Source of the DNA: Smithellaceae bacterium
Lineage (GTDB): Bacteria > Desulfobacterota > Syntrophia > Syntrophales > Smithellaceae
DNA length: 64,000 nt
Reading direction: 5' to 3'
NCBI GenBank assembly: GCA_030690945.1
Contig: JAUYFM010000022.1
Coordinates: 1,014 to 65,013, forward strand
Positions 2,932 to 40,540 of the stretch are shown here, one piece after another (position 1 is the first letter of the stretch; each line of letters begins with the position of its first letter). Under the pieces are notes generated by a model. That model saw nothing but the letters and a program-made list of their open reading frames with translations, searched no databases and had not been told where the DNA came from. The translations under genes and the position numbers were made by a program.

Positions 2932-5748
<2,817 letters not shown>

Positions 5749-27191: not shown

Positions 27192-27202
27192 AGCGCCGGA
27201 AG

Positions 27203-27231
27203 TTGACACTCCGGGCAAAGAATGTTAAATC
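27203..27231 (+). promoter_or_regulatory. Candidate promoter for tRNA-Arg
   Basis: TTGACA (27203-27208), a 17-nt spacer, TAAATC, then a GC-rich discriminator. Confidence 0.35.
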
Positions 27232-27263
27232 GCCGCATCCTGCGGGAACCTGAAACCAAGGTT

Positions 27264-27340
27264 GCCCCTGTAGCTCAGATGGATAGAGCGACAGATTCCT
27301 AATCTGTGGGCCGCGTGTTCGACTCACGCCAGGGGCACCA
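27264..27340 (+). tRNA. tRNA-Arg (anticodon CCT), CCA encoded
   Basis: GCCCCTG...CAGGGGCACCA acceptor stem; anticodon stem-loop ACAGA-TTCCTAA-TCTGT. Confidence 0.9.
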
Positions 27341-27845
27341 ATAAAATTAAGTAGTTATATAAATGTAGCTAACCCATTTATCTTTCCATGCTACCCGATG
27401 AGCAATAGAAACAAAACATTTTCAGCAGTAAAATTTACAAATCTCCCCTACATCAATGCCATAATGTTACAATAAAACTAACTTACTATAGGGGTAACAA
27501 TTTGCACATAAAGCACCAGTCCCGTGGAAATATGGAAAATTGAACCTTCAGCAACGCCGCCAAGCCCAAAGCAACCGCGCGCCCTGAGCAATGCTCGACC
27601 TGCCGGAGCACAGCGGGCGATGTGCTTTGCTTTGTGCAAGGGGATCGACCTAACTTCCTTCCGGCTAAACACAAATTATTAATATCTCAAAAGATACAAT
27701 ACTTTATTCCGCAATCCATTATGTTATTTTCTCGATAATTATGATAAAGATTTTCCACATTTTAAGTACTCAGCAATATAAATCGATCAGATTATTATAG
27801 CCTCATCTAAAAGAAGATACAGAAGAAGGAATTAATAATTTATGA

Positions 27846-28094
27846 GTTATTCATCGATCAATTCGCCCGGATGGCAAGAAAATAAACAGCGCCATGTCCG
27901 ATGTATGGAATCGCGATCTGACAAACGACCTGCAAGCTATCCAGGATTGCGGCCCGCAAAGACAAATGGAACTGGAAAGCTACGGCTACCGGTTCCTTAG
28001 GATTAACAAATTCAATTTAAGACCTCAAATCCAGGGGCAGACGGAAAGGGATGTATTAAAACAGTTATTGGCGGAAAATTTTACCTGTCATTAG
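27846..28094 (+). pseudogene. Chimeric gene remnant: phosphatase-like fragment fused to the C-terminal tail of an REase/DUF559-like protein
   Basis: IRPDGKKINSAMSDVWNRDLTNDLQAIQDCGPQ parallels the fragment at 30083-30258. It then switches to ...LESYGYRFLRINKF..., a G(W/Y)xFxRI tail typical of DUF559-like ends. Confidence 0.4.
27873..27958. repeat. Direct repeat A (57-nt core 27902-27958)
   Basis: The core TGTATGGAATCGCGA(T)CTGACAAACGACCTGCAAGCTATCCAGGATTGCGGCCCGCA matches 30202-30258 with one mismatch. Weaker homology extends about 29 nt upstream. Confidence 0.9.
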
Positions 28095-28108
28095 TAAACA
28101 CGCGATCA

Positions 28109-28579
28109 TTGGCAAGGAGCCACGCTATTGCCGTCGAGCGTCTGGCGAAGGATTTGCAAAAAGAATTTGCCGGATCGACCGGATTTTCGGCGCAAAACCT
28201 GTGGTTCATGCGTCAACTGTATACGGAATATAAAGATTTTCCAAATCTCTTACAGCTTGTTAGAGAAATTCCTTGGGGACAAAATATTGCCGTCATGACC
28301 AAGATCAAAGACCCGGATGCGAGGGAATACTACCTGCGGATGACGGCGGAAATGGTCTGGAGCCGCAACGTGCCGGCCCATCAGATCAGTACAGACGCCT
28401 ATGGCCGCCAGCGGAAATCGGCCAAACAACACAATTTTCAAAAGACCCTTGCACCCACGCTGGCCGAACAGGCGGACGAGGCCATGAAGGATGTTTACGC
28501 CCTTGAATTTCTGGGCATCACCAAACCGGTGGTGGAGCGCGAGCTGGAACGGCGAAGTATGGGTAAGAATGTGACTTAA
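28109..28579 (+). pseudogene. Truncated DUF1016/YhcG-family (PDDEXK nuclease) gene; only the middle part is present
   Basis: ...GFSAQNLWFMRQLY...REIPWGQNIAVM...DPDAREYYLRMTAEMVWSRNV...VYALEFLG matches the central DUF1016 region. The N-terminus and the C-terminal nuclease core are absent. Confidence 0.5.
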
Positions 28580-28634
28580 TATTTGGCTTACTTGTAAACT
28601 AAAAGCTTACGTGATGTTAATTGTTAATATTTTA

Positions 28635-28663
28635 TTGACAATTAAAATATTATAGTTTATAGT
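28635..28663 (+). promoter_or_regulatory. Near-consensus sigma-70 promoter upstream of fic, overlapped by an inverted repeat
   Basis: TTGACA (28635-28640), a 17-nt spacer, then TATAGT (28658-28663). TTAATTGT...ACAATTAA flanks and overlaps the -35. Confidence 0.55.
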
Positions 28664-28770
28664 GTCTTACGTTAATTTGGTGTTAAATGTTATTTCGCGT
28701 TATGTAAAATATTTCCTTGCCCCGTTGGAAAAGTCTCACATTTCAAACGGGGCAAACATGGTGTTTAATT

Positions 28771-29925
28771 ATGGCGGCAACTTTCAAACATTTTGATCTT
28801 AAACTCGTTGGGCCTTCTTTTGATTCCAACCTGACTGATTTGGTTATCGAACTGGACTATCTGCGCAAAAAAGAACTTGGCGGTACGACCCATCCATTGG
28901 TATTTTTCCAATTAAAAGAGCTGTTTCATATGCTGGAGAGTCTCTGTTCGGCGCGGATTGAAGGGAACCGTACAACGCTTTCGGAAATTATCGAAAATCG
29001 CTTGGAAGGATCATCATCCGCTGATGAAAAAATACGCGAAATCATGAATATGGAAAAGGCGATGGATTTTATTGATAAAAATGTGAAATCTTTCCCACTG
29101 GACCGCGCTTTTATCTGCCAGTTGCACCGCCTGACGGTGAACGATTTGACACTAGCCCCGAATGGTGAAGGCGATCAGTCACCGGGTGTTTATCGAATAC
29201 AAAATGTCAATATTGCCGGTTCGAATCATAAACCGCCGGAATATTTACAGGTCAATGATTATATGGATGAACTGATCAGGTTCATCAATCAGCCGGTTTT
29301 ACCAAAATATGATTTAATTAAAACAGCTATCGCGCACCACCGGTTTGTTTGGATTCATCCCTTCAATAACGGCAATGGCAGAACGGTTCGCCTGTTCACC
29401 TATGCGTTGCTCGTCAAGCAAGGGTTTCATGTTGACACCGGCCGGATATTGAATCCGACAGCGGTGTTCTGCAACGACAGGGACAAATATTATGATTACT
29501 TATCTGAAGCTGATTCCGGCACAGATCAAGCAATGGCATTGTGGTGTGAATATGTCTTATCCGGCTTAAAGCTGGAAATAGAAAAAATTGACCGGCTGAC
29601 GGAATATAATTTTCTAAAAAAGGAAATCATTATTCCCGCAATTGCTTTTGCGCGTGAAAGAGAAGTCATTACAGACACCGAAGCCAGGGTTTTAAGAAAA
29701 ACAGTCGAGCTTGGCGTGATGCAGGCCTCGGATATCGGAGAATTCTTCAGGAAAAAATCGGCGCCGGAAATCTCCCGCCAGATTGCCCGTTTGAAAAAAA
29801 AGAAGATGTTGCAGCCGGAAAAAGAAGGTTCCCGCAAATATGTCATCCGTTTTGATAACAATTATCTGCTACGCGGCATTATAAAATCTTTGGATGAGAA
29901 AGGGTTCTTGCCGATAAAAGATTAG
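28771..29925 (+). CDS. Fic family protein (Fic_N + Fic + C-terminal wHTH-like tail)
   Basis: The Fic motif is HPFNNGNGRTVRLF, and the N-terminal SARIEG matches the (S/T)xxxE(G/N) inhibitory helix. The start is at ATG 28771. Confidence 0.85.
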   Translation: MAATFKHFDLKLVGPSFDSNLTDLVIELDYLRKKELGGTTHPLVFFQLKELFHMLESLCSARIEGNRTTLSEIIENRLEGSSSADEKIREIMNMEKAMDFIDKNVKSFPLDRAFICQLHRLTVNDLTLAPNGEGDQSPGVYRIQNVNIAGSNHKPPEYLQVNDYMDELIRFINQPVLPKYDLIKTAIAHHRFVWIHPFNNGNGRTVRLFTYALLVKQGFHVDTGRILNPTAVFCNDRDKYYDYLSEADSGTDQAMALWCEYVLSGLKLEIEKIDRLTEYNFLKKEIIIPAIAFAREREVITDTEARVLRKTVELGVMQASDIGEFFRKKSAPEISRQIARLKKKKMLQPEKEGSRKYVIRFDNNYLLRGIIKSLDEKGFLPIKD

Positions 29926-30082
29926 AGACTGTTACAGTGTTACAGGGGGCACGCTGTTACCTTATTAACTTCCTCCTTCAATTCTTCTGTAACCCGCACC
30001 GCCACTGAAGTGAATAGGGATGGGTCCTGGAAAAATTCATGGTTCATCCTTTGGGAATTGTACAAAAGCGGTCAAAATAAGC

Positions 30083-30258
30083 ATGATTAAAACGAGTATT
30101 TGTCATCCGCTGCGGATTGATGAGGTGCAGGTGCCCAATGGTTCGGGCATCATCGGGATGACGTTGTGTTCCGGCAAGAAAACAAACAGTACCATATCCG
30201 GTGTATGGAATCGCGACCTGACAAACGACCTGCAAGCTATCCAGGATTGCGGCCCGCA
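30083..30258 (+). pseudogene. N-terminal fragment of a phosphatase-like gene, cut off at the end of the converging ATPase gene
   Basis: MIKTSICHPLRIDEVQVPNGSGIIGMTLCSGKK...GVWNRDLTNDLQAIQDCGPQ resembles N-termini of bacterial dual-specificity/CDKN3-like phosphatases (from memory only). The frame then runs into unrelated sequence. Confidence 0.3.
30173..30258. repeat. Direct repeat B (57-nt core 30202-30258)
   Basis: Partner of 27873-27958, offset by exactly 2300 bp. Confidence 0.9.
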
Positions 30259-30263
30259 GTTTC

Positions 30264-31403
30264 TTACAGCAAGTCGGTCTCTAACAAATCCAGCGGCAAG
30301 GCAGAGATGTTCTTACTAAGCTGATACTTTTGTTTGCCGGGATAAACAATCCATAATTTAGACAACTGTAAATCGTCCATGGCTGTCTGCATAGATCGGG
30401 TAAGGCGTGGCGCGTCTTCATACTTGAATTCAACACCCCAGTTTTTGCCGCGGTTTTGCCAGAAAAGATCAAGCTCCGCGCCCGCGTGTGTGTTCCAAAA
30501 ATAAAGTTCGTTATCCTGCTTTTCCAACATTCGGCAGACACAGTCAAGCGCAAAACCCTCCCAGGAAGCACCCAGCTTTGGCCATGTTTGCAACTGTTTT
30601 TGCGTCTCGATGGAAGAAAGACTATGATACAGTCCGGAATCGCATAGGTAAAATTTGGGCCGCTTTACAAGCCGTTTACCAATGTTGACATGCCAGGGCT
30701 GGAGAATGCGGATCATAAACGTTCCCTCAAGAATGTCGCAATATTTACGCACGGTCATATCGGATACACCGAAAGATCGGCCCAGTTCGGCGTAATTGAG
30801 AATCTGTCCGTGGTAATGGCTGAGCATTGTCCAGAAGCGACGTAATGTTCGGGCTGGTATGTTGATGCCAAGTTGCGGGATGTCGCGTTCCAGAAATGTT
30901 GTTACATATTGATTCCGCCACACATGACTTTCTTCATCTGTCCTGGCTAGAAAAGACAGGGGTAATCCGCCACGCAGCCAAAGCATTTTGATCTTTGTCT
31001 CGTCAATATCGCTTAAACGAAAACCACCCAGGTAGTGGTAAGCAATTCGGCCGGCAAGTGACTCTGAGCTCTGGCGGATTAAATCCCGTGAAGCACTACC
31101 CAGAATGATAAATTTTCGCTTTTTGTTCTGATCGACAAGATAACGCAGCAACGGAAATAAATCCGGTATGCGTTGGATTTCGTCAATGATAATTACACCT
31201 GAAAGATCTTCGAGCGCAAGCTGCGGCTGATCCAGGCGGGCGGCGTCCCGCGGATTTTCCAGGTCGAAATAATGATCGGCGCCAATAGTCTTTGCCAGTG
31301 TTGTTTTACCGCACTGCCTGGGGCCGAGGATGGCCACTACGGGGAAAATTGCCATCAATTTGGACAATGCAGCTTGATCTTGCTGTCTTTTAATAATCTC
31401 CAT
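30264..31403 (-). CDS. AAA-type ATP-binding protein with DUF4143 C-terminal domain
   Basis: GPRQCGKTT Walker A, IIIDEIQ Walker B, and the architecture typical of the AAA_14/DUF4143 family. Confidence 0.8.
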   Translation of the reverse strand: MEIIKRQQDQAALSKLMAIFPVVAILGPRQCGKTTLAKTIGADHYFDLENPRDAARLDQPQLALEDLSGVIIIDEIQRIPDLFPLLRYLVDQNKKRKFIILGSASRDLIRQSSESLAGRIAYHYLGGFRLSDIDETKIKMLWLRGGLPLSFLARTDEESHVWRNQYVTTFLERDIPQLGINIPARTLRRFWTMLSHYHGQILNYAELGRSFGVSDMTVRKYCDILEGTFMIRILQPWHVNIGKRLVKRPKFYLCDSGLYHSLSSIETQKQLQTWPKLGASWEGFALDCVCRMLEKQDNELYFWNTHAGAELDLFWQNRGKNWGVEFKYEDAPRLTRSMQTAMDDLQLSKLWIVYPGKQKYQLSKNISALPLDLLETDLL

Positions 31404-31566
31404 GGCTGTAACCTAGCAGATCTACCTTGAAAAATCAAACATTATGTATGATATTTCAAGGTGGAAGAGGATGAGAATGATCTTTTGCGTGTTCCGGATT
31501 ATGTGGAAAAGGTGAATTCTTTTCCGACTGATCGACGGACACATAAACGGAGATGCTCATAGGTGG

Positions 31567-31896
31567 TCAGGTTCTGATATGGCATACGCCAAACCCGTCC
31601 CATTCACTCACGGGTTTTGCCGACCTGATGACAAAACCCGCTTTGTTCTGGTTATGCGCACAGGCGATCGTGACGTCTCCTGCCAGCTGGTGGATTTCCG
31701 GGCTCATGACAAATTGCAGACCGTCGGATTCATAAATCAGGTCTGCCTCGCGAACTCCATCCAGGCACAGGCCCAGTGAAGCGTCACAGCAGCCCGTGGA
31801 ATGGAGTTCGATGCGGATCGGCCGGTTCGACTCCTTCGTGGCCAGCGATAGACGGATGGCCTCACCCGCGCCCGCCTCCAAATGGACCAGTGACAT
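31567..31896 (-). CDS. HesB/IscA-like small protein lacking the C-terminal CGC motif
   Basis: ATG 31896 follows AGGAGGGA. IRIELHSTGCCDASLGLCLD...DGLQFVM parallels the IscA block [21 protein letters not shown]...KGVKVVV. Confidence 0.5.
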   Translation of the reverse strand: MSLVHLEAGAGEAIRLSLATKESNRPIRIELHSTGCCDASLGLCLDGVREADLIYESDGLQFVMSPEIHQLAGDVTIACAHNQNKAGFVIRSAKPVSEWDGFGVCHIRT

Positions 31897-31914
31897 GGTG
31901 TCTCCCTCCTTTTT

Positions 31915-32064
31915 ATACCAAGTTGCTATCAAATGTTAACAGGAGTACGGGTCGCTTGTGACCTTTAGGTTATTAGACCCGTTGAATACGCGAACCTAAT
32001 CACCTGAAGGTGACCCGAGGTTCGGACTACATTGTCTCGTTATCCTTTGAATGCGACTTGGTAT
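31915..32064. repeat. Structured intergenic repeat element, copy 2 (150 bp)
   Basis: Same termini and core as 16875-16988. Both apical loops grow from 4 to 22 nt (+18 nt each). Confidence 0.75.
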
Positions 32065-32115
32065 TACCCTTCATCGTGGCCGTTTCGGCGGTGATGAAGC
32101 CTTAAAAACCAGGTT

Positions 32116-34074
32116 TCATATCGTCCATGCCGCGCTCGCCCCTTCTGTTGTGGCCTCGATGATGCGGCGCGGGGTGCTGGCATCGCCAATGATGAAATGG
32201 CGGATGCCTTTTTCCCGAAGCATATCCTTAAAGGTATTCCGGGGGGTAACGCCGATGGCCACGATGACCTGGCTGACGGGTTCCAGCCTTTGCTCTTTCC
32301 CATTGGTGCTGACCAGAACCGATCCTTGCTCGATGGCCTTGACGGTCGTGTTAAACATCAGCCTGGCTCCGGCAGCCCCCAGGCGCCGATGCAGCATTTT
32401 GCCATGGGCTGAGACTGGCGGCACAGGCGGGTTAGCCAGCATCTCAACCAGGGTAACATCCTTGAGGCCCTTCTCACAGAGGAAATCCGCCGTTTCCATC
32501 CCCACCAGACCGCCCCCGATGACGACGACGTGGTCTTTGGGGATAACATCGCCATTCAAAATCTGCCAGGCGTCGCAGACAACAGAGGATGAAATACCCT
32601 CGACCGGACAAGTGGACTTATCGGCGCCAATAGCCAGAATGACGACGTCAGGGTTTCCCTGGACAATCATTTCTTCCGTAACTTCCGTTCCCGTCCGGAT
32701 ATCAACGCCCTTTTTCCGGCACTTCGCCGTGAGGGTTCTGATCCATGTGCCATAGGCCGATTTATGGGGGGCCTTTTCAGCAAAGCGTATCTGTCCGCCG
32801 GTCTCCTTTTCCTGTTCAAAAAGGATGACCTGATGGCCGAGTCTTGCCGCCTCATAGGCCGCAGTAAGACCGCCCGGACCACCCCCGATCACCCACACCT
32901 TTCGGGAAACCACCGCCGGTTTTGTCGGATAGATCAGTTCCTGACCCGTTTCCGGGTTGATGGCGCAACGCACCGACTGCTGCTCCAGTATGAGTCGTTC
33001 GATACAACCCTGATTACAGGCAAGGCATTCACTCGTGTCTTCCGGATGCCCAGCCATGGCATTTTTCAGGAAATCGGGATCGGCCAGATGCTGGCGTGCC
33101 ACGGCGATCATGTCCGCATCACCACGGGCAATGGCTTCGTCCATGATATAGGGATCCGTGAAACGGCCCACGGCGATAACGGGTACCTCCGTCACGTCTT
33201 TGATCTTGCGGGCCAGCCCGACATTGAAGCCCTGCTCATATTCAATGGGGGCGCTCGCATTCGGCGTATCAACGCTGACGGCGGCACTGGCGTGGGTGCC
33301 GAAGGATACGTTGATCATATCCGCGCCGGCGGAAACGAGGTCGGGGATAATCGTCTGTATATCGGAGACGGTATAGCCGTTTTGGATGCATTCCTCTGCG
33401 GAGATGCGGATCAAGATGGGATAATCGTTCCCAACCTGTTTGCGGACCTCCTCCAGGCACTCGATCATAAACCGGGACCGGGCCCGGAAATCGCCGCCAT
33501 ATTGATCAGTCCGCTGATTGGAATGGGCCGAGAGAAACTGCATGAGGAGATAGCCGTGGGCGGCGTGGAGTTCTATGGCATCAAAGCCTGCGGCCCTGGC
33601 ACGAACAGCCGCTGTGCCGAAGGACGTAATGGTCTCCCGGATATCTTCCAGGGTCATCTCCCTGGGCGTTCCGAGGAAGCCATAGATGTAACTCGGAATG
33701 GCCGAAGGGGCGACGGCTGTCTTCCTTTGGGTCTGGAACATACTTTCCCGGCCGCAATGGTGAAGCTGCATGGCGATCTTGCCGCCTTCGGCATGCACCA
33801 CAGCGGCAAGCTTTTTGAGCCCCGGAATGAATTTGTCATCCCACACGCCCAGACATTGGGGCGCCACAGCGCCCAGAGGGTGCACTTCCGTGATCTCGGT
33901 GATGATAAGCCCGGCGCCTCCCTGGGCCCGACGCTTCATATAGGCCAAGGTTGCTTCACTAACCGTGCCGTCAGTGTTGCCCAGCCGTGTGCCCATAGGC
34001 GGCATGACGATCCTGTTGGGGATATTCATGGACTTGACCCGCAGGGGGGTCAGCAGATGTTCTAATGTTTCCAT
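32116..34074 (-). CDS. OYE-like FMN/FAD/Fe-S oxidoreductase (2-enoate reductase / 2,4-dienoyl-CoA reductase FadH family)
   Basis: N-terminal TIM-barrel block (NRIVMPPMGT, HAAHGYLLMQFLS), a CLACNQGC Fe-S motif, and C-terminal VIGGGPGGL and VVVIGGGLVG dinucleotide folds. Confidence 0.85.
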   Translation of the reverse strand: METLEHLLTPLRVKSMNIPNRIVMPPMGTRLGNTDGTVSEATLAYMKRRAQGGAGLIITEITEVHPLGAVAPQCLGVWDDKFIPGLKKLAAVVHAEGGKIAMQLHHCGRESMFQTQRKTAVAPSAIPSYIYGFLGTPREMTLEDIRETITSFGTAAVRARAAGFDAIELHAAHGYLLMQFLSAHSNQRTDQYGGDFRARSRFMIECLEEVRKQVGNDYPILIRISAEECIQNGYTVSDIQTIIPDLVSAGADMINVSFGTHASAAVSVDTPNASAPIEYEQGFNVGLARKIKDVTEVPVIAVGRFTDPYIMDEAIARGDADMIAVARQHLADPDFLKNAMAGHPEDTSECLACNQGCIERLILEQQSVRCAINPETGQELIYPTKPAVVSRKVWVIGGGPGGLTAAYEAARLGHQVILFEQEKETGGQIRFAEKAPHKSAYGTWIRTLTAKCRKKGVDIRTGTEVTEEMIVQGNPDVVILAIGADKSTCPVEGISSSVVCDAWQILNGDVIPKDHVVVIGGGLVGMETADFLCEKGLKDVTLVEMLANPPVPPVSAHGKMLHRRLGAAGARLMFNTTVKAIEQGSVLVSTNGKEQRLEPVSQVIVAIGVTPRNTFKDMLREKGIRHFIIGDASTPRRIIEATTEGASAAWTI

Positions 34075-34115
34075 AGGTCTTCTCCTCTAAAGAATTGAAT
34101 GTTTCGGTTATTAGA

Positions 34116-36527
34116 TCATGTACCGGATTCCAGGTCTTCTGTTCTTGGGTCGGGCCAATGCTTTGTCCCCCCTTCGAAGATGACCGTGAGCACTTTTTTC
34201 GGGTCGGAGGACTCCTCCACATTGGGAAGATTGGTCCCGCCATAACCTGGAAGTGTATAGAATGTGAAATCCAGGGGCATCATGCGGCCTTCCCGCACAG
34301 CCTCCACATATTTTTGAGCCGCTTCGGGATCGGGGACGCCGCGGACATTGCCAAGGAACTTTCGGCCGTTCTGCCGGTGATCGGCAAACGCGCAGGCGCT
34401 TCCATAGAGACTCGATATCCCGATCCTGCCGGGGTATTTCCATCCATAGAGCACCTGTTTGATATACCGATCGAAGGCCAGGGAGTAGCTGGGCCATTTC
34501 CCCTTTCCCCACATGAGACCGGCAAAGAAGGGATCGGCTTCCTCTTTGAGTGACTGGGCCATCAGTTGGGCCACAACAGTTACCAACCCGTACACCTGTT
34601 CTCTGGTGAAGTCGTGCCCTTCGGGGTTCCACTCGGGGTTTGAGCACCTCGGGACGTTGGACAGCATGGCGTAGAAGGCCCGGAAGGGTTCCGATTCATC
34701 TTCATCTGCCTTGGTGCTCATATTGAGACCACCCAAAATATTGGTTGGCCCGTAAAGCCCCTTCTTTCCGTATTCTTCATAGGTCACGGTGCCGTCACCC
34801 GTTTCGTCAAAGGCGTCGAGAAAACTGCGCTTCCGCGATGTCCCCTCCAGCGTATCAACGGCATCCATGTATCCGAAGAATGTTTTCTGCAGATCCCAGG
34901 GCATTTTGTAGGTGTCGGAATAAAGGGCGCTGGTGACGATTTCATTGAAGCGGTTCCCTTCCACAAAACCCAGTCGACCACGGAAGGAGGCCAGGGGATG
35001 CCCCGTGATCGCGTCATGGCCGACCACATAATAGGAGCGTTTCCCCAGACCACGCTGCAGGGCCCGCTCGAAGCAGTAATCCCTGCGGAGGGGGCAGTCA
35101 TAGGCCTTTTCGGTGATAATAGCCTGGCCGTCATATCGCGGCATTGGAACAGCCTGGGGGAAATACCCGCCCATGCCGTCATCAAGGCCACTTTCCTCGG
35201 CCTCTTTAAGGCCCACATTGCTGAACATGTAGCGGGCACAGAAAAGATCAGCCGCCACGGGGTCGATACCTGCCATCACGAGACCCTCGGGTTCCTTGAT
35301 GCCCAGGCCTTGTCCCTGATGATCCCGATTGATGCCTTCCACGGCATCGACGATGTGCATCATAAAAATATTCTGGTTGGCCACGGCGGCGATGATATCG
35401 ATCATGGTTCCCGTCAGGCCGCCTGTCTTTTTCACCAGATAGTTCCCGTCAATGCCTTTTCTGGGAAGGCAGGTTGCGGAGTCCATCTCCGGAACCCATA
35501 CCTGATGCGGAATGGCGCCCTTCATCCCCGGAATTTTCCGGTGGGGCGTTGCGTATTCCCAGGCACAGTTGCTGGAACGGGACACTTCCATGGGATAGAG
35601 GCCAATACCGAGGTTTTTGATAATATTGGTAAAGAGGGCCTGGGCATGAACCTTCAAGCGAGGCAGGTTAATCAGAATGCATCCCGGGTAAGCGGACCGA
35701 TCAGCGGCATCGGAAGGATCGCCGCCGATGATGACTTTATGGAGAATGAGAGAATCAAAATTCTCACCATCTGGAACGGGGATATCCCTTCCTTTTGCCG
35801 GATCGTCGCAGATCCGGTTCAGGTCGTAGACCATAAGCTTGTCCGTCACCTTGCCCGGGGGAAGATAGATGCCCGCCATGCTTTCTTCCAAACCCTGCAT
35901 TGCATCGTCTCCCATGGATGTATCGGATACCTCGGCAAGATACCGGCGGACGAAATAGAAACCCCACCCCCCGTAGAAATTATCGGAGCGTCCTTCAATG
36001 ACCGCTTCGGTTGTCACGGGCCTTCCCGCCGTTTTGATCCGGCGGTAATGGGCGGCAACACTGGACAGGGCCGTGGCGGCCTCGCCGATGCACATCCGGT
36101 AGTAGCTGATGCCCGCTTTGTCATGGAACCAGCGCATCACGGCAGCCACGAAGGGCCATTCCGTATTTCCCGTGCTTCCCGGGGTCGGACCATAGGTATA
36201 GGGGTCAATGTTCTCCGTGCTGACCAGGTTTGGCTTGAAGAGAATCTTTTGTCCCAGATCGAGTCTTTTGCGCAGGAGGGCAAGAAACCCTGTCTCCTCC
36301 TCCAGGGCGGTGAGGGCGGCATCGATGTTTTCGTAGGTATAATTGATCTTCGCCTTGATGTCCTGCCAAGCCGCTTCATCGGTGTTACGGATGACTTTCT
36401 GGAGCAGGGGCCCGGTTCCCTTGTATGATTTTTTGACGTCCATCCGGGCCACGGCCACGGCGGCGCCGTCCTTGTCGATCATGCCGTCACCCAGGGCGGT
36501 ATGAATCAGTTTTTCTTTAATACGCAT
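34116..36527 (-). CDS. Large DUF362-like protein (803 aa) with an uncharacterised ~350-aa C-terminal extension
   Basis: ATG 36527 follows GGAAGGAG. ILFKPNLV, LINLPRLKVHAQALFTNIIKNLGIG and VDAVEGI...MAGIDPVAADLFCARYM follow the DUF362 pattern. The 89 extra N-terminal codons in the track ORF overlap the upstream gene. Confidence 0.55.
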   Translation of the reverse strand: MRIKEKLIHTALGDGMIDKDGAAVAVARMDVKKSYKGTGPLLQKVIRNTDEAAWQDIKAKINYTYENIDAALTALEEETGFLALLRKRLDLGQKILFKPNLVSTENIDPYTYGPTPGSTGNTEWPFVAAVMRWFHDKAGISYYRMCIGEAATALSSVAAHYRRIKTAGRPVTTEAVIEGRSDNFYGGWGFYFVRRYLAEVSDTSMGDDAMQGLEESMAGIYLPPGKVTDKLMVYDLNRICDDPAKGRDIPVPDGENFDSLILHKVIIGGDPSDAADRSAYPGCILINLPRLKVHAQALFTNIIKNLGIGLYPMEVSRSSNCAWEYATPHRKIPGMKGAIPHQVWVPEMDSATCLPRKGIDGNYLVKKTGGLTGTMIDIIAAVANQNIFMMHIVDAVEGINRDHQGQGLGIKEPEGLVMAGIDPVAADLFCARYMFSNVGLKEAEESGLDDGMGGYFPQAVPMPRYDGQAIITEKAYDCPLRRDYCFERALQRGLGKRSYYVVGHDAITGHPLASFRGRLGFVEGNRFNEIVTSALYSDTYKMPWDLQKTFFGYMDAVDTLEGTSRKRSFLDAFDETGDGTVTYEEYGKKGLYGPTNILGGLNMSTKADEDESEPFRAFYAMLSNVPRCSNPEWNPEGHDFTREQVYGLVTVVAQLMAQSLKEEADPFFAGLMWGKGKWPSYSLAFDRYIKQVLYGWKYPGRIGISSLYGSACAFADHRQNGRKFLGNVRGVPDPEAAQKYVEAVREGRMMPLDFTFYTLPGYGGTNLPNVEESSDPKKVLTVIFEGGTKHWPDPRTEDLESGT

Positions 36528-36555
36528 GGTTTGGTTGTGCTCCTTCCGATTTTTC

Positions 36556-37617
36556 TCATATTTCCCTTCGTTGCTGATGAATTGCCATGGTCGCCGTGAA
36601 CAGGTCTTTTTCCGGGACGAATTCCTTGTCCTTGTCTTTCCGGAAGACCTTGATTGCTTCGGTGGGACAGGTGACGGCGCAGACGCCGCAACCGATGCAG
36701 CGGTCCAGGTTGATGTGGGCGACATCGTCCATGGAAATTGCGTCCATGGGGCATCGCTCTTCACAGAGCTCGCAGCCGATACAATCGGTTTCACTCACCC
36801 GGGCAAAGAAGCTGCTGTTAACCATCTCCGAGGGCTTAGCACATTTTTTATAAGCGATAAGAGGGCCGCAGCAGCAATCACAGCACATGCAAAGGGCGAC
36901 GGCGTTCTGGGAGGAACTCAACTGACAGATCAGACCGGCTTCCTCACCTTTCTTCAGAATGGCCAGGGCTTCTTCCTGCTCAACGTAGCGGCCCATACCG
37001 TTTTCCACAAAGTAATGGGTGCCGCTGCCGAAATGGAAACACACCTCCATTGGCTTGCTGCAGGGCTCGTTCAGAAGTGCTTTCTGTCTCCGGCACATGC
37101 AATCGGAAACACCAATATACTTGGCGGATTTGATGGCCGCCTCGGCACTTTCGTAGGGCATGACCTGGGCATCCGAGTCCACGCTTTCGGAAATGGGAAT
37201 CGTCCGCAGATCCCTCGTTTTTCCTTTCATCCAGGTGGCGTCAAACAGAATCGGCCCAAACTCCGCCATGTCTTTGGCAAATTCAGGAGTCATCCGGTTC
37301 ATTTGAAACTCGATGATTCCCACCAGGAATGCGGTTGCCATATATTTATAGCTCCCGGCTTTCCCAATACGAAAAATCTGCCCCTTGTGGGACATCTCAA
37401 AGAGCATCTGCTCGGTTTTTTCCGGATCCGCTCCGATACGGCAGGCAACCTCCGTGGCCGTTTCCGGCATCGGGGTAAGCTTCATCACCATTTCTGCATC
37501 CTCGGGTGAAAAAATGTGCTTCAGAACTCTAAGCTCAATTCCCGATTCCGTATGCAACGGATACCGCTGGGGGAAGGTGTCCAGAAACTCCGCCAATCGT
37601 TGATAAACGTCCTTCAT
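36556..37617 (-). CDS. Cys-rich Fe-S protein (wHTH-like N-terminus, CMCCDCCCGP motif, C-terminal 2x[4Fe-4S] ferredoxin domain)
   Basis: ATG 37617 follows AAAGGAGAG. CIGCELCEERCP and CIGCGVCAVTCP are ferredoxin motifs, with additional Cys clusters CMCRRQ and CMCCDCCCGP. Confidence 0.6.
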   Translation of the reverse strand: MKDVYQRLAEFLDTFPQRYPLHTESGIELRVLKHIFSPEDAEMVMKLTPMPETATEVACRIGADPEKTEQMLFEMSHKGQIFRIGKAGSYKYMATAFLVGIIEFQMNRMTPEFAKDMAEFGPILFDATWMKGKTRDLRTIPISESVDSDAQVMPYESAEAAIKSAKYIGVSDCMCRRQKALLNEPCSKPMEVCFHFGSGTHYFVENGMGRYVEQEEALAILKKGEEAGLICQLSSSQNAVALCMCCDCCCGPLIAYKKCAKPSEMVNSSFFARVSETDCIGCELCEERCPMDAISMDDVAHINLDRCIGCGVCAVTCPTEAIKVFRKDKDKEFVPEKDLFTATMAIHQQRREI

Positions 37618-37670
37618 GATGCTCTCCTTTTTGTAAATAATACATTAACTCCACCCCGGCGCTACTCTTG

Positions 37671-37805
37671 TGTCGCAATCTTTCTTGTCATTGCGAGGCG
37701 CGCAGCGCCGTGGCAATCTCAAACCGTTAGATTGCCACGGCTCCCGAGGGTAGCCTCGCAATGACCTTGTGGCAAAGTCTCAGAGGGGCGCGGAGATTTG
37801 CGATA
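37671..37805. repeat. Nested inverted-repeat element inside the operon
   Basis: The inner stem is a perfect 12-bp pairing, CCGTGGCAATCT/AGATTGCCACGG (37708-37740). The middle stem is 13 bp, GTCATTGCGAGGC/GCCTCGCAATGAC (37687-37699 / 37753-37765). The outer stem is GTCGCAATCT/AGATTTGCGA. Confidence 0.8.
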
Positions 37806-37833
37806 CCCGTTCGGTCCCTCCCATCCCTTTCTC

Positions 37834-38658
37834 TCACCGCCATGTCACCAGCGGTGTATTTCTTTGCGGAATTCGCTCATAGCCGGTTTTGGGGTAACCT
37901 AACATGACCGTGCCATAACATTGGTGCCCCGCGGGCAGGCTCAAGGCTTCGGCCAGGGGTGCATGAAAATTGGCCGCTACCGTGAAATAGCCGCCCCAGC
38001 AGGTTCCCAGCCCTCTGGCATAGGCATAGAGTTCCAGATAGGTCAGGGCGATCACACAGTCCGCTTCGGCAAAAGGCAGGTCGGCCGGGGAATGAACCAG
38101 GATCAAGTTCGGCGCCCCGCGCAGGATCCGGTCTTTCCCGTTATCCCAGGCGGTGATGATGCGACGCATGCGCCGGACCATGTCCTCATCTGTAATGCCC
38201 GGAAGGTTCTGTCGTGTAAAATCGATCACCATCGCTGCGAAGCGCTTCAGCTGGGCCGGGTCTTCAAAAACCGTCCAGTGCACCTGCTGCTTATTGCTCC
38301 CCGTGGGCGCATAGCGGGCCAGATCAATCAAATCCTCCAAAAGATCATGGGGTACGGGTTCTGTTTTGTACTGGCGTATGGAACGCCTCGCCCTTAAAAG
38401 CTGCCCCACGGCCTCCGGTCCAGGAAGAAGGTCCTTTTGCAGGGATGCACAAGCATCGAGAGGCATTGACGAAAGCGTCAAGGCACCGTGAGGACATACG
38501 GCTACGCAGTGGCCGCAGTTGATGCAGAACTCTTCGGCATCCTCTATCGGTGACGGGAAGGCGTTTTTATCCGCCATAGCAATCACCTGTGCCGGACAAT
38601 CTTTCACACAGATGCCGTCACGCTTGCATTTTTTCTGATCGATCATAAAAAGACTCAT
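37834..38658 (-). CDS. Ferredoxin-nitroreductase fusion protein
   Basis: N-terminal CKRDGICVKDCP and CINCGHCVAVCP, followed by a nitroreductase fold (RRSIRQY, APTGSNKQ). The start is ATG 38658, or 38664. Confidence 0.8.
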   Translation of the reverse strand: MSLFMIDQKKCKRDGICVKDCPAQVIAMADKNAFPSPIEDAEEFCINCGHCVAVCPHGALTLSSMPLDACASLQKDLLPGPEAVGQLLRARRSIRQYKTEPVPHDLLEDLIDLARYAPTGSNKQQVHWTVFEDPAQLKRFAAMVIDFTRQNLPGITDEDMVRRMRRIITAWDNGKDRILRGAPNLILVHSPADLPFAEADCVIALTYLELYAYARGLGTCWGGYFTVAANFHAPLAEALSLPAGHQCYGTVMLGYPKTGYERIPQRNTPLVTWR

Positions 38659-38728
38659 ATTCATTTCCTCTTTTCCAGCTCCTTTTTTCCAGCCCATTTA
38701 CAAGCAGGCATAGATTAAATTAATGAAA

Positions 38729-39325
38729 TCACTTAGGCTTCAGGAAGACGTCAAATAAAAGGGAAACGCAGTCGCGAATCGGTTCCGTCGAGTTCTCTAT
38801 CTTCATGCGCAAAAGACTGCCCTCCCATGCATCCCAGCAGAATTGGGCAAGTTTAGTTGCCTTAATGTCCCGACGCACGGTACCCTGAACCTGGGCGCGC
38901 TCGAGATGATAAGCCACGCGGTCACACCAGGTAACCATCACCGATTTCAGGGTGCCGCGACATAACTCGCTGGATTCCGCCAATTCTCCGGCCAAATTGC
39001 CGATCAGACAGCCCGTTTTGATGCGGCAGGCATCCTGGCCCTGAATTATGGACTCGAAAGCGTTACGCAGCATTTTAAGCGGGTCATCATCGGGTCCCCT
39101 GGCAATCAAGATATTCCACACCTCGGAGACATGGTCTGCATAATGTTTTACAATCTCTGCCGCGAAGCCTTCTTTACTTTTAAAATAGCTGTAGAAAGAC
39201 CCCTTCGGAATGCTTAATGCATCTACGATTTCCTGTATGCCCGTACCATGGTAGCCCCGCTCGCAAAACAAGGTAGCGCCGACTTCCAGTAGTTTTTCCT
39301 TGATATGAATATTTTCCCTGACCAT
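38729..39325 (-). CDS. TetR/AcrR family transcriptional regulator
   Basis: LLEVGATLFCERGYHGTGIQEIVDALSIPKGSFYSYFKSKE is a TetR HTH. ATG 39325 gives a typical 198 aa, whereas the GTG-extended track ORF adds a non-homologous 42 aa. Confidence 0.85.
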   Translation of the reverse strand: MVRENIHIKEKLLEVGATLFCERGYHGTGIQEIVDALSIPKGSFYSYFKSKEGFAAEIVKHYADHVSEVWNILIARGPDDDPLKMLRNAFESIIQGQDACRIKTGCLIGNLAGELAESSELCRGTLKSVMVTWCDRVAYHLERAQVQGTVRRDIKATKLAQFCWDAWEGSLLRMKIENSTEPIRDCVSLLFDVFLKPK

Positions 39326-39577
39326 GTCGGCACAATATGACCGGTCATCTTGTTTGTCAAGGAAATTATCATTCCTGGTAAAGTTTGTCCGGGTTTTAAA
39401 GTATTTATCGCCCCAGGAAGAAATGGAATCTTCTATAAATGAACGCGCCACATCTTCATCGACTTCAATAAGGCATGTCTTTTTCTTTCCTTTTGGCGCT
39501 TAAAATCTTATCAATTTAGTCTTTACAAAAGCCTCTCTTCCTGATTAAAGTCAGCGATAAAGCAACAGGAGATTGTT

Positions 39578-40540
39578 ATGACGCAGGCAAACTTGCCGGA
39601 ATATGATTATGATGTTGTCATTATCGGTGGCGGACCGGCAGGTTACACGGCCGGTATCTACGCCGCGCGCGCCGCGCTGAAGACGCTGCTCATCGAAGGC
39701 GCAGGTACAGTCAGCCAGATCACCATAACGGATATGATAGAAAATTACCCGGGCATTCCCGACGGCATCGGCGGGTTTGAGCTGATGCAGCTTTTCAAAA
39801 AGCAGGCACAGAAATTCGGCCTGGAAGTTCTTCCCAAAGACGTAACGGTTGTCAAAAAAAGTCCCGCAGCCCAGGTACTCTGGGAAGTGACCGCCGGAGA
39901 CAAAGTCTATAAAACACTTAGTATTATTGCCGCGACAGGCGCAATGTGGCGCAATCTGGATGTCCCGGGAGAAACAGAATTTGTAGGACGTGGCGTATCC
40001 TATTGCGCCACCTGCGACGGGCCCTTTTACCGCAACCGCGACGTCATTGTAGTGGGCGGCGGCGACACAGCTGTCCAGGAAGCGCTTTTCCTGACGCATT
40101 TTGCCAAAAAAGTAATTGTAATTCATCGCCGCGACAGACTGCGCGCGGCGGGAATGCTGCAAAAAAGGGCTTTTGCCGAAAAGAAAATTGAATTTGTCTG
40201 GAACGCAGCGATTACGGAAATCACCGGCACTGAGTTTGTTACAGGTGTCAAGGTGAAAGATGTCAACACCGGAGTGATCCGCGAAATGGCCGCCGACGGC
40301 GCTTTCATTTTTGTCGGTCGCCTGCCTTACACGGAAATGTTTCAAGGGCTGGTGGAAATGGATAAAACCGGCTTTATAATAACGGATGAACATTTGCGAA
40401 CCAATGCCGCAGGTATTTTTGCCGCGGGCGATTGCCGCTCCAAGCTTTTTCGCCAGGTTGTCACAGCCGCGGGCGACGGCGCCAACGCCGTCCACAGCGC
40501 TGAGTTGTATATCGATGACGTGAAAGGACAGACCTACTAA
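39578..40540 (+). CDS. trxB: Thioredoxin-disulfide reductase
   Basis: VVIIGGGPAG, the CATCDG redox-active disulfide, and a second GGGDTA fold. Confidence 0.93.
   Translation: MTQANLPEYDYDVVIIGGGPAGYTAGIYAARAALKTLLIEGAGTVSQITITDMIENYPGIPDGIGGFELMQLFKKQAQKFGLEVLPKDVTVVKKSPAAQVLWEVTAGDKVYKTLSIIAATGAMWRNLDVPGETEFVGRGVSYCATCDGPFYRNRDVIVVGGGDTAVQEALFLTHFAKKVIVIHRRDRLRAAGMLQKRAFAEKKIEFVWNAAITEITGTEFVTGVKVKDVNTGVIREMAADGAFIFVGRLPYTEMFQGLVEMDKTGFIITDEHLRTNAAGIFAAGDCRSKLFRQVVTAAGDGANAVHSAELYIDDVKGQTY

What the first reader, a model, noticed from the sequence alone, without database searches (positions are those of the whole stretch)
27873..30258. 57-nt near-perfect direct repeats exactly 2300 bp apart bracket the fic module
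Seen in sequence: 27902-27958 and 30202-30258 are identical except for one base (T27917 versus C30217). Similarity decays over about 29 nt upstream of each core and stops abruptly at the same 3' base (...GGCCCGCA). Both copies lie in fragments of the same phosphatase-like reading frame (…(D/G)VWNRDLTNDLQAIQDCGPQ). The bracketed 2.3 kb carries an REase-tail remnant, the DUF1016 fragment, and the fic promoter and gene. Inference: either a circular fic-bearing segment integrated by recombination within this core (att-like duplication), or a segmental duplication followed by decay. Either way, the repeats allow precise RecA-mediated excision of fic.
Basis: partly seen in the sequence, partly recalled or inferred. 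Interest (0 to 1): 0.55.

Follow-up and report, generated by a model that had tools for sequence, protein, structure and literature searches.

The report
Duplicated phosphatase gene relics around fic
The two near-identical 57-base repeats are real, but they are leftover front ends of a broken phosphatase gene inside a decaying defence-gene island of a Smithella-like bacterium, not the scars of a fic element inserting itself, so the finding is ordinary.

Summary
The repeat is confirmed: 86 nt at 93% identity, a 57-nt core with one mismatch, spacing 2300, and only two copies in the window. Both copies are 5' pieces of a DSP/CDKN3-type phosphatase gene.

Copy 2 (30083-30259) is the resident gene's own start. 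It is cut by a 1.2-kb DUF4143 ATPase cassette, and a middle piece of the gene survives beyond the cassette at 31461-31532.

Copy 1 (27873-27958) is a second, 5'-truncated copy. It is fused through a 19/23-nt patch of imperfect homology to the last 44 codons of an SF1 helicase-nuclease gene.

The 2.3 kb between the copies is not an insert. Helicase tail, DUF1016 relic and fic is the natural gene order downstream of that helicase in other genomes, where Fic is 93% identical. A deletion then joins the fic stop codon to the phosphatase's native upstream region.

Both repeat junctions also occur in a Smithella MAG whose interior carries different genes, so they predate and are independent of fic. 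I found no recombinase, circle or empty site.

Rare RecA-mediated loss of fic is possible but not evidenced. It is unexplained why copy 1 ends exactly at the ATPase cassette border. Interest is low.

The parts
27264..27340 (+). tRNA-Arg(CCT). It forms the left border of a low-GC islet (~27341-31460) of degraded defence-type genes.
   Evidence: ARAGORN and Rfam tRNA at 67.9 bits. GC drops to 0.36-0.48 inside the islet versus 0.5-0.6 in the flanks.
27341..27872 (.). AT-rich spacer of unknown origin between the tRNA and copy 1. It has no gene, no integrase and no repeat of the tRNA 3' end.
   Evidence: It was found only in the same sample's contig L001 among the 112 loci fetched.
27873..27958 (+). 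Repeat copy 1: a 5'-truncated relic (codons ~31-59) of a second copy ('P1') of the phosphatase gene. The 57-nt core is 27902-27958.
   Evidence: It is orthologous to the complete 5' part inside the 104-aa ORF P0001 of a Smithella MAG, with 3 differences in 86 nt.
27959..28094 (+). Segment T: the last 44 codons plus stop of an SF1 helicase-nuclease gene, fused in frame to copy 1 at junction J1 (27958|27959).
   Evidence: tblastn with a helicase tail gives 77% identity over 52 aa. Full-length helicases end ...YDTQRQMELESYGYRFLRINKFNLRPQ. T is the natural end of an intact helicase gene in L014 and L097. There are 19/23 matches between the phosphatase and helicase sequences ending at the junction.
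28095..28579 (+). Relic of a DUF1016/YhcG-type nuclease gene, truncated at both ends.
   Evidence: Pfam DUF1016_N E = 2.8e-26, covering profile positions 49-137 only. It is only 35% identical to the full DUF1016 gene of the relative, so it is a different gene. Its first ~30 nt are still present between T and fic in L097.
28606..29925 (+). fic module: promoter region (TTGACA-17-TATAGT at 28635-28663) and Fic gene 28771-29925.
   Evidence: Pfam Fic E = 1.1e-17 and the promoter scan at 11/12. The protein is 93% identical to the Fic that directly follows the helicase gene in L097, and the promoter DNA aligns.
29925..29927 (.). Deletion junction. To the left, the window matches the fic block of L097 up to the stop codon. 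To the right, it matches the phosphatase upstream block of L096. In L097, the MTase and Res genes follow fic.
29948..29972 (+). Solo copy of a 25-nt motif (GGCACGCTGTTACCTTATTAACTTC). In L096 this motif bounds, in inverted orientation, an element with a Y1 (IS200/IS605-type) transposase.
29927..30082 (+). Native upstream region of the resident phosphatase gene.
   Evidence: Window 29948-30176 is ~92% identical to L096 15-248.
30083..30259 (+). Repeat copy 2 ('P2'): the first 59 codons of the resident phosphatase gene, complete from its start codon. The repeat is 30173-30258 and the core is 30202-30258. It ends at junction J2.
   Evidence: tblastn with the intact phosphatase of L015 gives residues 1-61, 69% identity, E = 5e-23.
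30260..31460 (-). DUF4143/AAA_14 ATPase cassette inserted in the phosphatase gene. The gene is 30264-31403, and its promoter region with a 22-nt-arm inverted repeat is at 31421-31465.
   Evidence: Pfam. Phosphatase sequence lies on both sides. The same unit plus ~82 nt of phosphatase lies at a different locus in other Smithella genomes, and homology ends at 31460. The inverted repeat folds with z = -5.1 and is conserved upstream of distant homologues.
31461..31532 (+). Surviving middle piece of the phosphatase gene (codons ~65-88, VEEDENDLLRVPDYVEKVNSFP), to the right of the ATPase cassette.
   Evidence: tblastn gives 67% identity over 24 aa, E = 1e-5. The DNA alignment to intact L015 shows the piece, and it is further decayed in the two relatives.

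Best explanation
The repeats are two relics of the 5' part of one DSP/CDKN3-type phosphatase gene. They lie in a small, decaying defence-gene islet next to tRNA-Arg in a Smithellaceae genome.

Shown:
- Copy 2 is the resident gene's own start with its native upstream region.
- The gene was cut after codon 59 by a 1.2-kb DUF4143 ATPase cassette, and a middle piece of the gene remains on the far side.
- Copy 1 is a remnant of a second copy of that same truncated 5' part. It is joined in frame to the last 44 codons of an SF1 helicase-nuclease gene at a 19/23-nt patch of imperfect homology.
- What lies between the copies is inherited island DNA: helicase tail, DUF1016 relic and fic, as found downstream of the intact helicase elsewhere. 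A deletion then removed the MTase and Res genes and joined the fic stop codon to the phosphatase's upstream region.
- Both junctions are shared with another Smithella genome that has different genes between them.

Inferred:
- The ATPase insertion came first. A copy of the already truncated fragment, arriving with a different Type III-like restriction island, was later joined to the helicase gene by short-homology illegitimate recombination. That event put two island versions in tandem.
- Later lineage-specific deletions and homologous exchange between island variants gave the present mosaics.
- The repeats have no dedicated function. They are long enough for rare RecA-dependent deletion of the 2.3 kb, but nothing indicates that this is used.
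For: Gene identity:
- 562 homologues.
- PTP-SAK, Tc-R-P and CDKN3 hits on full-length members.
- An intact close homologue reads through the break point in L015.

Copy 2 is native and split by the cassette:
- Phosphatase residues 1-61 match at 30083-30265 and residues 65-88 match at 31461-31532.
- The upstream region is shared with L096.

Copy 1 is fused to the helicase tail:
-.
- The helicase is intact, with T as its natural end, in L014 and L097.
- The junction patch has 19/23 matches, and fewer than 1e-4 of random pairs score as well.

The interior is inherited:
- Fic is 93% identical, and the promoter and post-T DNA are collinear with L097.
- The fic block ends at its stop codon, and the L096-type block follows.
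- The MTase fragment beside the truncated copy 2 in the relatives equals the start of the MTase that follows fic in L097, at 94-98% identity.

The junctions are old and independent of fic:
- The Smithella contigs L004, L005 and L007 carry both junctions on one contig with ATPase(+), SLFN and an MTase fragment between them.
- The T/C difference is lineage-specific: copy-1 type has T and copy-2 type has C, in both genomes.

Order of events:
- The ATPase plus ~82 nt of phosphatase exists at a second locus with 23% divergence at fourfold sites.
- Copy 1 and copy 2 differ by only ~7%.

Not a generic repeat or mobile element:
- Two copies in the window.
- Zero hits in JGI metagenome and viral contigs.
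- fic is absent from viral contigs.
- No recombinase ORF in the islet.
- The repeat end has no special fold.
Against: - Copy 1 ends within 1-2 nt of the ATPase cassette border of copy 2. For a chance illegitimate join this is a roughly 1-2% coincidence, and my account does not explain it.
- The order of events rests on comparing divergence over short stretches (57-185 nt).
- In the relative, the DNA upstream of copy 1 is an unrelated restriction system, so the source of the second copy was not seen.
- The distribution of characters is incompatible with a simple tree and requires recombination between island variants. J1 is in the window and the Smithella MAG but not in L014. The MTase-fragment deletion is in the Smithella MAG and L014 but not in the window.
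- I could not examine reads, so low-frequency excision products cannot be excluded.
- All genomes involved are MAGs or metagenome contigs.
Confidence: 0.75

Rival explanations
1. Break points at the ends of a mobile ATPase cassette. In this reading the DUF4143/COG1373 ATPase gene with its palindromic promoter region is a discrete mobile unit. Cleavage or excision at its ends produced DNA ends. These were then joined elsewhere. That created the copy 1-helicase junction exactly at the cassette's left border, and it also moved the cassette with 82 nt of flanking phosphatase to a second locus.
For: - Copy 1 ends within 1-2 nt of the cassette's left border.
- The cassette's right border, the outer edge of the inverted repeat at 31460|31461, is the same in the phosphatase insertion and in the copy at the B12-binding/DinB locus.
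- The ATPase family is very widespread at 77-85% identity across several lineages and sits in different contexts.
- DUF4143 is classed as a PD-(D/E)XK nuclease fold of unknown function (PMC3424549).
Against: - No transposase or recombinase, terminal repeats or target duplication were seen.
- Conservation up to the palindrome in distant copies is expected for a promoter or operator and says nothing about mobility.
- Only one informative pair of contexts exists.
- The left border differs between the two events.
- The junction to the helicase shows the signature of ordinary short-homology joining.
- The GC-rich patch TTGCGGCCCGCAGG could simply be a favoured annealing site.
Confidence: 0.15
2. 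att-type duplication. In this reading a circular 2.3-kb fic-bearing segment integrated by site-specific or Campbell-type recombination within the 57-nt core, so the two copies are attL and attR.
For: - There are near-identical direct repeats with an abrupt common 3' end and a short palindrome (TTGCGGCCCGCAA) at that end.
- The k=31 assembly graph of SRR13727535 is formally compatible with a 2.3-kb circle plus a deleted chromosome.
Against: - The interior is not a unit. Its left 2 kb is collinear with DNA downstream of an intact helicase gene in L097 and L014. Its right 0.3 kb is the phosphatase gene's own upstream region and start.
- Both junctions occur in the Smithella MAG with a different interior.
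- The sequence variants of each copy go with the same right-hand partner in both genomes.
- No recombinase gene lies in the islet.
- Neither the core nor fic is in viral contigs.
- The repeat end shows no structure.
Confidence: 0.03
3. Assembly artefact. In this reading the window contig joins sequences from different strains or molecules through the 41-nt exact repeat, so the two copies are not on one molecule in this order.
For: - The source is a metagenome-assembled genome.
- A k=31 assembly breaks at both copies.
Against: - The exact repeat is only 41 nt, shorter than ordinary reads and the final k of common assemblers.
- The pairings in the window (copy-1-type variants with the helicase tail, copy-2-type variants with the ATPase) are the same as in independent k141 contigs of another genome that span both junctions.
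Confidence: 0.04

Closest known systems
Decaying, mosaic defence islands at tRNA-linked hot spots (restriction-modification, helicase-nuclease, Fic, COG1373 ATPase and Schlafen-like genes turning over by deletion, insertion and exchange between variants). The general picture is from my own knowledge of the defence-island literature.
   Same: - Position next to a tRNA gene and low GC.
- Content of restriction-type, nuclease, Fic and COG1373/DUF4143 genes.
- Many truncated genes.
- Different cargo between the same flanks in related genomes.
   Different: - No integrase and no tRNA-end direct repeat were found.
- The repeats are fragments of a gene that belongs to the island's right edge, not island borders.
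Short-homology (illegitimate or homology-facilitated illegitimate) recombination junctions, as described for bacterial deletions, duplications and foreign-DNA acquisition (own knowledge: work of Ehrlich and colleagues; de Vries and Wackernagel 2002).
   Same: - The copy 1-helicase junction lies at the end of a 23-nt patch with 19 matches between the two parental sequences.
- The relatives' junction between the MTase fragment and copy 2 lies at a shared ACCTG.
   Different: - The parental molecules were not observed.
- Whether the event was a duplication within one chromosome or a join with incoming DNA is inferred.
attL/attR repeats of integrative elements that carry a surrogate end of their target gene.
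   Same: - Direct repeats lie inside a protein-coding gene.
- One copy has a complete gene start.
- There is an abrupt common end and a small palindrome at the border.
   Different: - There is no recombinase.
- The interior is not a discrete element.
- The target gene is not restored.
- The junction partners are a helicase gene fragment and an ATPase cassette rather than element arms.
RecA-dependent deletion between short direct repeats (minimal efficient processing segment of roughly 25-30 bp in E. coli; own knowledge: Shen and Huang 1986).
   Same: The 41 exact and 57 near-exact bases in direct orientation, 2.3 kb apart, exceed that minimum. Precise loss of one copy plus the interior is therefore mechanistically possible.
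   Different: - No deletion product was seen.
- Both copies persist in two diverged genomes.
- The organism's recombination parameters are unknown.

Membership tests
attL/attR of a site-specific integrative element | A recombinase (integrase, resolvase or transposase) gene lies inside or beside the bracketed DNA. | tested here: not met
   All ORFs of 27341-31460 are accounted for as a phosphatase/helicase fusion relic, a DUF1016 relic, Fic and the DUF4143 ATPase. A recombinase acting in trans is not excluded.
attL/attR of a site-specific integrative element | The bracketed DNA is a discrete unit that is absent, leaving one core copy, in relatives or present as a unit elsewhere. | tested here: not met
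   The left 2 kb is collinear with DNA downstream of an intact helicase gene in L097 and L014. The right part is the target gene's own start. The Smithella MAG has both junctions with another interior. No empty site was found.
attL/attR of a site-specific integrative element | Excision products (a circle junction and a repaired chromosome) are detectable. | not testable with these tools
The k=31 contigs of SRR13727535 break at the repeats and cannot distinguish the forms.
Duplicated pseudogene fragments (segmental duplication followed by decay) | Both copies are recognisable parts of one gene family, and an intact gene exists in relatives. | tested here: met
   establish the family. The intact gene in L015 reads through the break. 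P0004 and P0008 also read through it.
Duplicated pseudogene fragments (segmental duplication followed by decay) | Further pieces of the gene and ordinary rearrangement junctions (insertion, short homology) explain the borders. | tested here: met
   The middle piece lies at 31461-31532 beyond the ATPase cassette. The 19/23 patch is at the helicase junction. The coincidence of the two 3' borders remains unexplained.
Functional DSP/CDKN3-type phosphatase | The catalytic HCxxGxxR(S/T) loop and the full ~170-190-aa domain are present. | tested here: not met
   Both copies stop at codon 59. No C-terminal part with the active-site loop is in the window (tblastn). Compare HCRGGIGRTG in L015.
tRNA-linked genomic island | A tRNA gene lies at one border, with an integrase and a direct repeat of the tRNA 3' end at the other border. 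| tested here: not met
   tRNA-Arg is present. There is no integrase, and no repeat of the tRNA end appears among direct repeats in 27200-40000. Only the position and composition fit.
Fic/DOC family protein | A Fic domain with the motif HxFx(D/E)GNGRxxR. | tested here: inconclusive
   The Pfam Fic domain hits at E = 1.1e-17. The motif reads HPFNNGNGRTVR, with N in place of D/E, and an SxxxEG(N) stretch (SARIEGN) lies upstream (sequence). Activity cannot be judged here.
Generic interspersed repeat (REP/MITE-like) | Many copies per genome and across genomes. | tested here: not met
   There are two copies in the window, 0 exact matches in JGI metagenome contigs and viral contigs. Only two other genomes among 185,579 species representatives have close relatives at protein level.

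The most novel reading that the evidence does not exclude
The DUF4143/COG1373 AAA-ATPase gene with its palindromic promoter region is a self-contained mobile cassette. Its ends are recombination-active. On this reading, breaks at its borders explain why copy 1 ends exactly at the cassette's left edge. They would also explain why the same right edge bounds the cassette both in the phosphatase gene and at a second locus, where it carried 82 nt of phosphatase along. The 57-nt 'core' would then be passenger DNA of a new kind of mobile defence gene.
Probability: 0.15. Interest if true: 0.55.

Novelty: new member of a known kind. Interest (0 to 1): 0.2.

Why it matters
It matters mainly as a caution and as a worked example. 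Near-perfect direct repeats that bracket a toxin-like gene look like att sites. Here, comparison with four related locus versions shows they are duplicated gene debris in a defence island that is being rebuilt by insertion, short-homology joining, deletion and exchange between variants.

The practical consequence is modest. In this genome fic sits between 57-nt direct repeats and could be lost by rare homologous deletion.

The side observation deserves a systematic look because that gene family is one of the commonest unexplained components of defence islands. A COG1373/DUF4143 ATPase unit occurs at two loci with one identical border, and its other border coincides with a rearrangement end point.

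Tried and rejected
1. **Family scans of the short fragments.** Pfam and NCBIfam found nothing for the fragments themselves. The family had to be identified through the exhaustive protein search.
2. **First word-indexed protein search.** With the 59-aa piece it gave only 3 hits.
3. **Exact 41-mer scans.** Scans of JGI metagenome contigs and of viral contigs gave 0 hits. The Fic search in viral contigs also gave 0.
4. **Junction artefact idea.** Many tblastn matches to P0001 start before the junction. I considered that the fusion junction might therefore be an artefact of my reading. The matches turned out to be weak alignment overhang into the 19/23-nt patch shared by the helicase and phosphatase genes.
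5. **Simple tandem duplication of the whole island.** I considered this and rejected it. The restriction genes upstream of copy 1 in the relative are unrelated to those upstream of copy 2, and its DUF1016 gene is only 35% identical to the window's relic.
6. **Inversion model for the ATPase junction.** I rejected it because the phosphatase middle piece beyond the cassette is on the same strand as copy 2.
7. **Lower divergence of the 57-nt core.** I tested whether this signals selection or gene conversion. It is not significant (3/57 versus 19/128, Fisher p = 0.08).
8. **Hairpin at the repeat end.** None was found (z about 0 to +1).
9. **Apparent similarity between the DNA after the two junctions (CAAATCCAG...).** I dismissed it because in copy 2 that stretch encodes the conserved C-terminus of the ATPase on the other strand.
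10. **Upstream regions of the relatives.** I could not reach upstream of the SNF2 gene in the Smithella MAG or of the helicase in L014. Look-ups are limited to window proteins and search hits.
11. **Local files.** Several fetched loci never appeared as files for local BLAST, so those comparisons were made with the alignment tools.
Full report
**Observation.** The repeat is real and sits at the stated coordinates.
- Positions 27873-27958 and 30173-30258 are 93% identical over 86 nt, with spacing 2300.
- The 57-nt core differs only at T27917 versus C30217.
- Identity ends after ...GGCCCGCA in both copies.
- With up to 3 mismatches the core occurs twice in the window, against none expected.
- Contigs from a k=31 assembly of run SRR13727535 are identical to the window. 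They end or start exactly 30 nt into the exact part of each copy, so the repeat is in the reads. That graph alone cannot say whether the 2.3 kb is integrated or circular.

**Setting.**
- The repeats lie in a low-GC islet (~27341-31460) directly downstream of tRNA-Arg(CCT) at 27264-27340.
- On the left are housekeeping genes: smc, ftsY, a metallophosphatase and formiminotransferase. On the right are a HesB-like gene and an OYE-type oxidoreductase.
- The source is a Smithellaceae MAG. A 100% identical ATPase, P0272, sits on a 79-kb contig.

**What the repeated sequence is.**
- Copy 2 lies within an ORF whose first 59 codons (ATG at 30083) have 562 homologues. Many are 165-200 aa long, and the full-length ones hit the DSP-phosphatase families PTP-SAK, Tc-R-P and CDKN3.
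- A close, uninterrupted homologue in L015 reads ...AIQSWGARALVNLMEEHEYELLKVPDYVEKV...HCRGGIGRTG. It runs straight through the point where both window copies stop.

**Copy 2 is the resident gene, split by an insertion.**
- tblastn with the intact protein finds residues 1-61 at 30083-30265. It also finds residues 65-88 at 31461-31532 on the same strand (67% identity, E = 1e-5). The DNA aligns as well, and the two relatives keep a more decayed version.
- Between these two pieces lies a 1.2-kb unit. It holds a DUF4143/AAA_14 ATPase gene on the minus strand (30264-31403) and its promoter region with a strong inverted repeat (31421-31465, z = -5.1).
- About 15 nt of phosphatase (ALVNL) are missing.
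- The 155 nt upstream of copy 2 and its first 95 nt are ~92% identical to contig L096. There the same gene is cut at a different place by an element with a Y1 transposase.

**Copy 1 is fused to a helicase gene's tail.**
- The 136 nt after copy 1 are the last 44 codons of a ~1440-aa SF1 helicase-nuclease, ending ...YDTQRQMELESYGYRFLRINKFNLRPQ....
- In L014 (Syntrophaceae MAG, 148-kb scaffold) and L097 (GCA_002403385.1), this tail is simply the end of a helicase gene that is not fused to any phosphatase fragment.
- At the junction, the helicase reads GCAGAGCTATCTGGATTACGACACGCA|AAGACAAATGG. The phosphatase reads GCAAGCTATCCAGGATTGCGGCCCGCA|. That is 19 matches in 23 nt ending at the junction, and fewer than 1e-4 of random window pairs score as well.
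- This is the signature of short-homology illegitimate recombination, not of a site-specific crossover.

**The bracketed 2.3 kb is inherited island DNA.**
- In L097 and six other assemblies, the helicase gene is followed directly by a 384-aa Fic protein that is 93% identical to the window's. The MTase and Res genes come next.
- The end of the tail, the DNA just after its stop codon (TAAACACGCGATCAT...) and the fic promoter region all align between the window and L097. Only about 30 nt of the DUF1016 relic remain in L097.
- On the right, the window matches L097 up to the fic stop codon (29925). From ≤29927 it matches the phosphatase upstream block of L096.
- So one deletion removed the MTase and Res genes.
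- The bracket is therefore: helicase tail + DUF1016 relic + fic | deletion | native phosphatase upstream region + start.

**Four versions of the locus.** The labels G1-G4 are mine.

| Label | Source | Gene order |
|---|---|---|
| G1 | window | tRNA-Arg – spacer – truncated copy 1\|tail – DUF1016 relic – fic – deletion – copy 2\|ATPase(-)\|middle piece |
| G2 | Smithella MAG GCA_964351355.1 and k141 contigs L004-L009 | SNF2 … MTase – Res – complete copy 1\|tail – ATPase(+) – SLFN-like – MTase(1-106)\|last 42 nt of copy 2\|ATPase(-) |
| G3 | L014 | helicase not fused to any phosphatase fragment (only its last 690 codons lie within the locus) … tail – ATPase(+) – MTase – Res – hyp226 – MTase(1-106)\|last 42 nt of copy 2\|ATPase(-) |
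| G4 | L097 | helicase (called as two ORFs, 866 + 566 aa) … tail – fic – MTase – Res, with no phosphatase piece |

- Both repeat junctions of the window are thus present in G2 with a different interior.
- The T/C difference and the five upstream differences are lineage markers. Copy-1 type goes with the tail and copy-2 type goes with the ATPase, in both genomes.
- The MTase fragment beside copy 2 in G2 and G3 is 98% identical to the start of G3's own full MTase, and 94% identical to G4's MTase after fic. It was joined to copy 2 at a shared ACCTG.
- The characters conflict. The copy 1-tail junction is in G1 and G2 but not G3. The MTase-fragment deletion is in G2 and G3 but not G1. The tail-end and cargo allele pairs G1 with G4, and G2 with G3. 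So island variants have exchanged parts by homologous recombination.

**Order of events.**
- The ATPase unit plus about 82 nt of adjoining phosphatase (window 31460 to ~30178) also lies at a quite different, housekeeping locus in other Smithella genomes. There it sits between a B12-binding protein gene and dinB.
- The two versions are 90.4% identical over 1250 nt and differ at 23% of 157 fourfold sites. The phosphatase piece is about as diverged.
- Copy 1 and copy 2 differ by only ~7%: 13 substitutions and two indels in 185 nt. The core is not significantly less diverged than the rest (p = 0.08).
- So the phosphatase-ATPase junction is older than the split of the two copies. Copy 1 descends from an already truncated fragment. 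This partly explains why both copies end at the same base: there was no more phosphatase to copy.
- It is not explained why the join to the helicase gene was made at the very last bases before the cassette.
- Possible reasons are a GC-rich annealing hot spot (TTGCGGCCCGCAGG), a break at the cassette border, or chance (roughly 1-2%).

**Function and mechanism.**
- Nothing indicates that the repeats do anything.
- There is no recombinase gene in the islet and no structure at the repeat end.
- The core occurs nowhere else beyond these close relatives.
- There is no phage-borne fic, and no empty-site or circle variant.
- With 41 exact and 57 near-exact bases in direct orientation, rare RecA-dependent deletion of fic is possible. 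This is from established knowledge on minimal homology for RecA recombination. The persistence of both copies in two diverged genomes argues that it is infrequent.

**Rivals.**
- The att-type model fails three defining tests (see the membership table).
- An assembly artefact is unlikely. The exact repeat is shorter than reads, and the copy-specific variants pair with the same partners in independent k141 contigs.
- The only rival with some weight is that the ATPase cassette is itself mobile and its ends seed rearrangements. Its left border coincides with the end of copy 1. Its right border, the outer edge of the conserved inverted repeat, is identical in two contexts.
- Against this, more distant copies keep the inverted repeat but not the phosphatase piece. 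Conservation up to a promoter or operator is expected anyway, and no transposition hallmarks were seen.
- DUF4143/COG1373 is listed as a PD-(D/E)XK fold of unknown function (PMC3424549).

**Verdict.** This is a real feature with an ordinary explanation: duplicated debris of a phosphatase gene in a mosaic, decaying defence islet. It is a new instance of a known kind of thing. Interest is low (0.2). The most novel reading not excluded is a mobile DUF4143 ATPase cassette (probability about 0.15).

Noticed in passing
window 30178-31460; L104 9944-~11225 (also L105-L110): The DUF4143 ATPase gene, its promoter inverted repeat and ~82 nt of adjoining phosphatase sequence occur as one 1.25-1.3-kb unit at a second, housekeeping locus in other Smithella genomes, between a B12-binding protein gene and dinB. 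The two versions are 90.4% identical and differ at 23% of fourfold sites. The right border is identical to the border of the insertion in the phosphatase gene.
   Followed up: partly
window 31421-31465; L104 ~9944-10000; L111 and L112 ~3945-4000; L004 ~10425-10465: A strong inverted repeat (TTGAAAtATCA...TGATtTTTCAA, fold z = -5.1) lies just upstream of the DUF4143 ATPase start. It is conserved in copies of 84-95% protein identity in unrelated contexts. The paralogous ATPase(+) of the relative has a similar palindrome (CATTGAAAATTCGGATTG-ACA-ATCCGAATTTTCAATG). It is probably an operator for the protein's own HTH domain.
   Followed up: partly
window 27873, 30173-30183; L096 248|249; L104 ~11225: Three independent break points fall within 10 nt of GGCAAGAAAA in the phosphatase gene: the 5' border of copy 1, the border of the phosphatase piece that travelled with the ATPase, and the insertion point of a Y1-transposase element in L096.
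   Followed up: no
window 29948-29972; L096 15-39, 261-285 (+) and 1112-1136 (-): A 25-nt motif (GGGACGCTGTTAACTTATTAACTTC) bounds, in inverted orientation, an ~850-nt element with a Y1 (IS200/IS605-type) transposase fragment in L096. It also occurs as a solo copy upstream of the phosphatase gene in both L096 and the window. It is the only copy in the window.
   Followed up: partly
L014 3957-6092 and 9690-10010; L004 12999-13319: The 106-codon MTase fragment beside the truncated copy 2 duplicates the start of a full Type III-like MTase 5.7 kb upstream in the same genome (98% identical). The same fragment and junction are in the Smithella MAG, which lacks the full gene. This shows exchange or duplication between island variants.
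   Followed up: partly
window 28771-29925: The Fic protein has a non-canonical active-site motif, HPFNNGNGRTVR, with N where D/E is usual. It also has an SARIEGN stretch resembling the inhibitory (S/T)xxxE(G/N) motif, and a C-terminal part with weak HTH-type hits. In L097 it sits between a helicase-nuclease gene and a Type III-like MTase/Res pair.
   Followed up: no
window 27341-27872: The 532-nt spacer between tRNA-Arg and copy 1 is AT-rich, with one GC-rich patch (~27540-27650). It has no ORF of note, no Rfam hit at gathering threshold and no match in any fetched locus except the same sample's contig.
   Followed up: partly
L095 1343-2034 (GCA_019136075.1); P0012: In other genomes the same phosphatase family is followed by, or fused to, an ADP-ribosylglycohydrolase-like region (Pfam hit in P0012, and reading through in L095). 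In L095 the phosphatase itself carries an internal deletion and frameshift.
   Followed up: no
window 31567-31932: The HesB/IscA-like gene on the right flank has its best hit to the NCBIfam 'IscA_HesB_Se' subfamily (E = 1e-15, below the cut-off). The ORF as listed starts with TTG and overlaps the decayed end of the phosphatase gene region.
   Followed up: no
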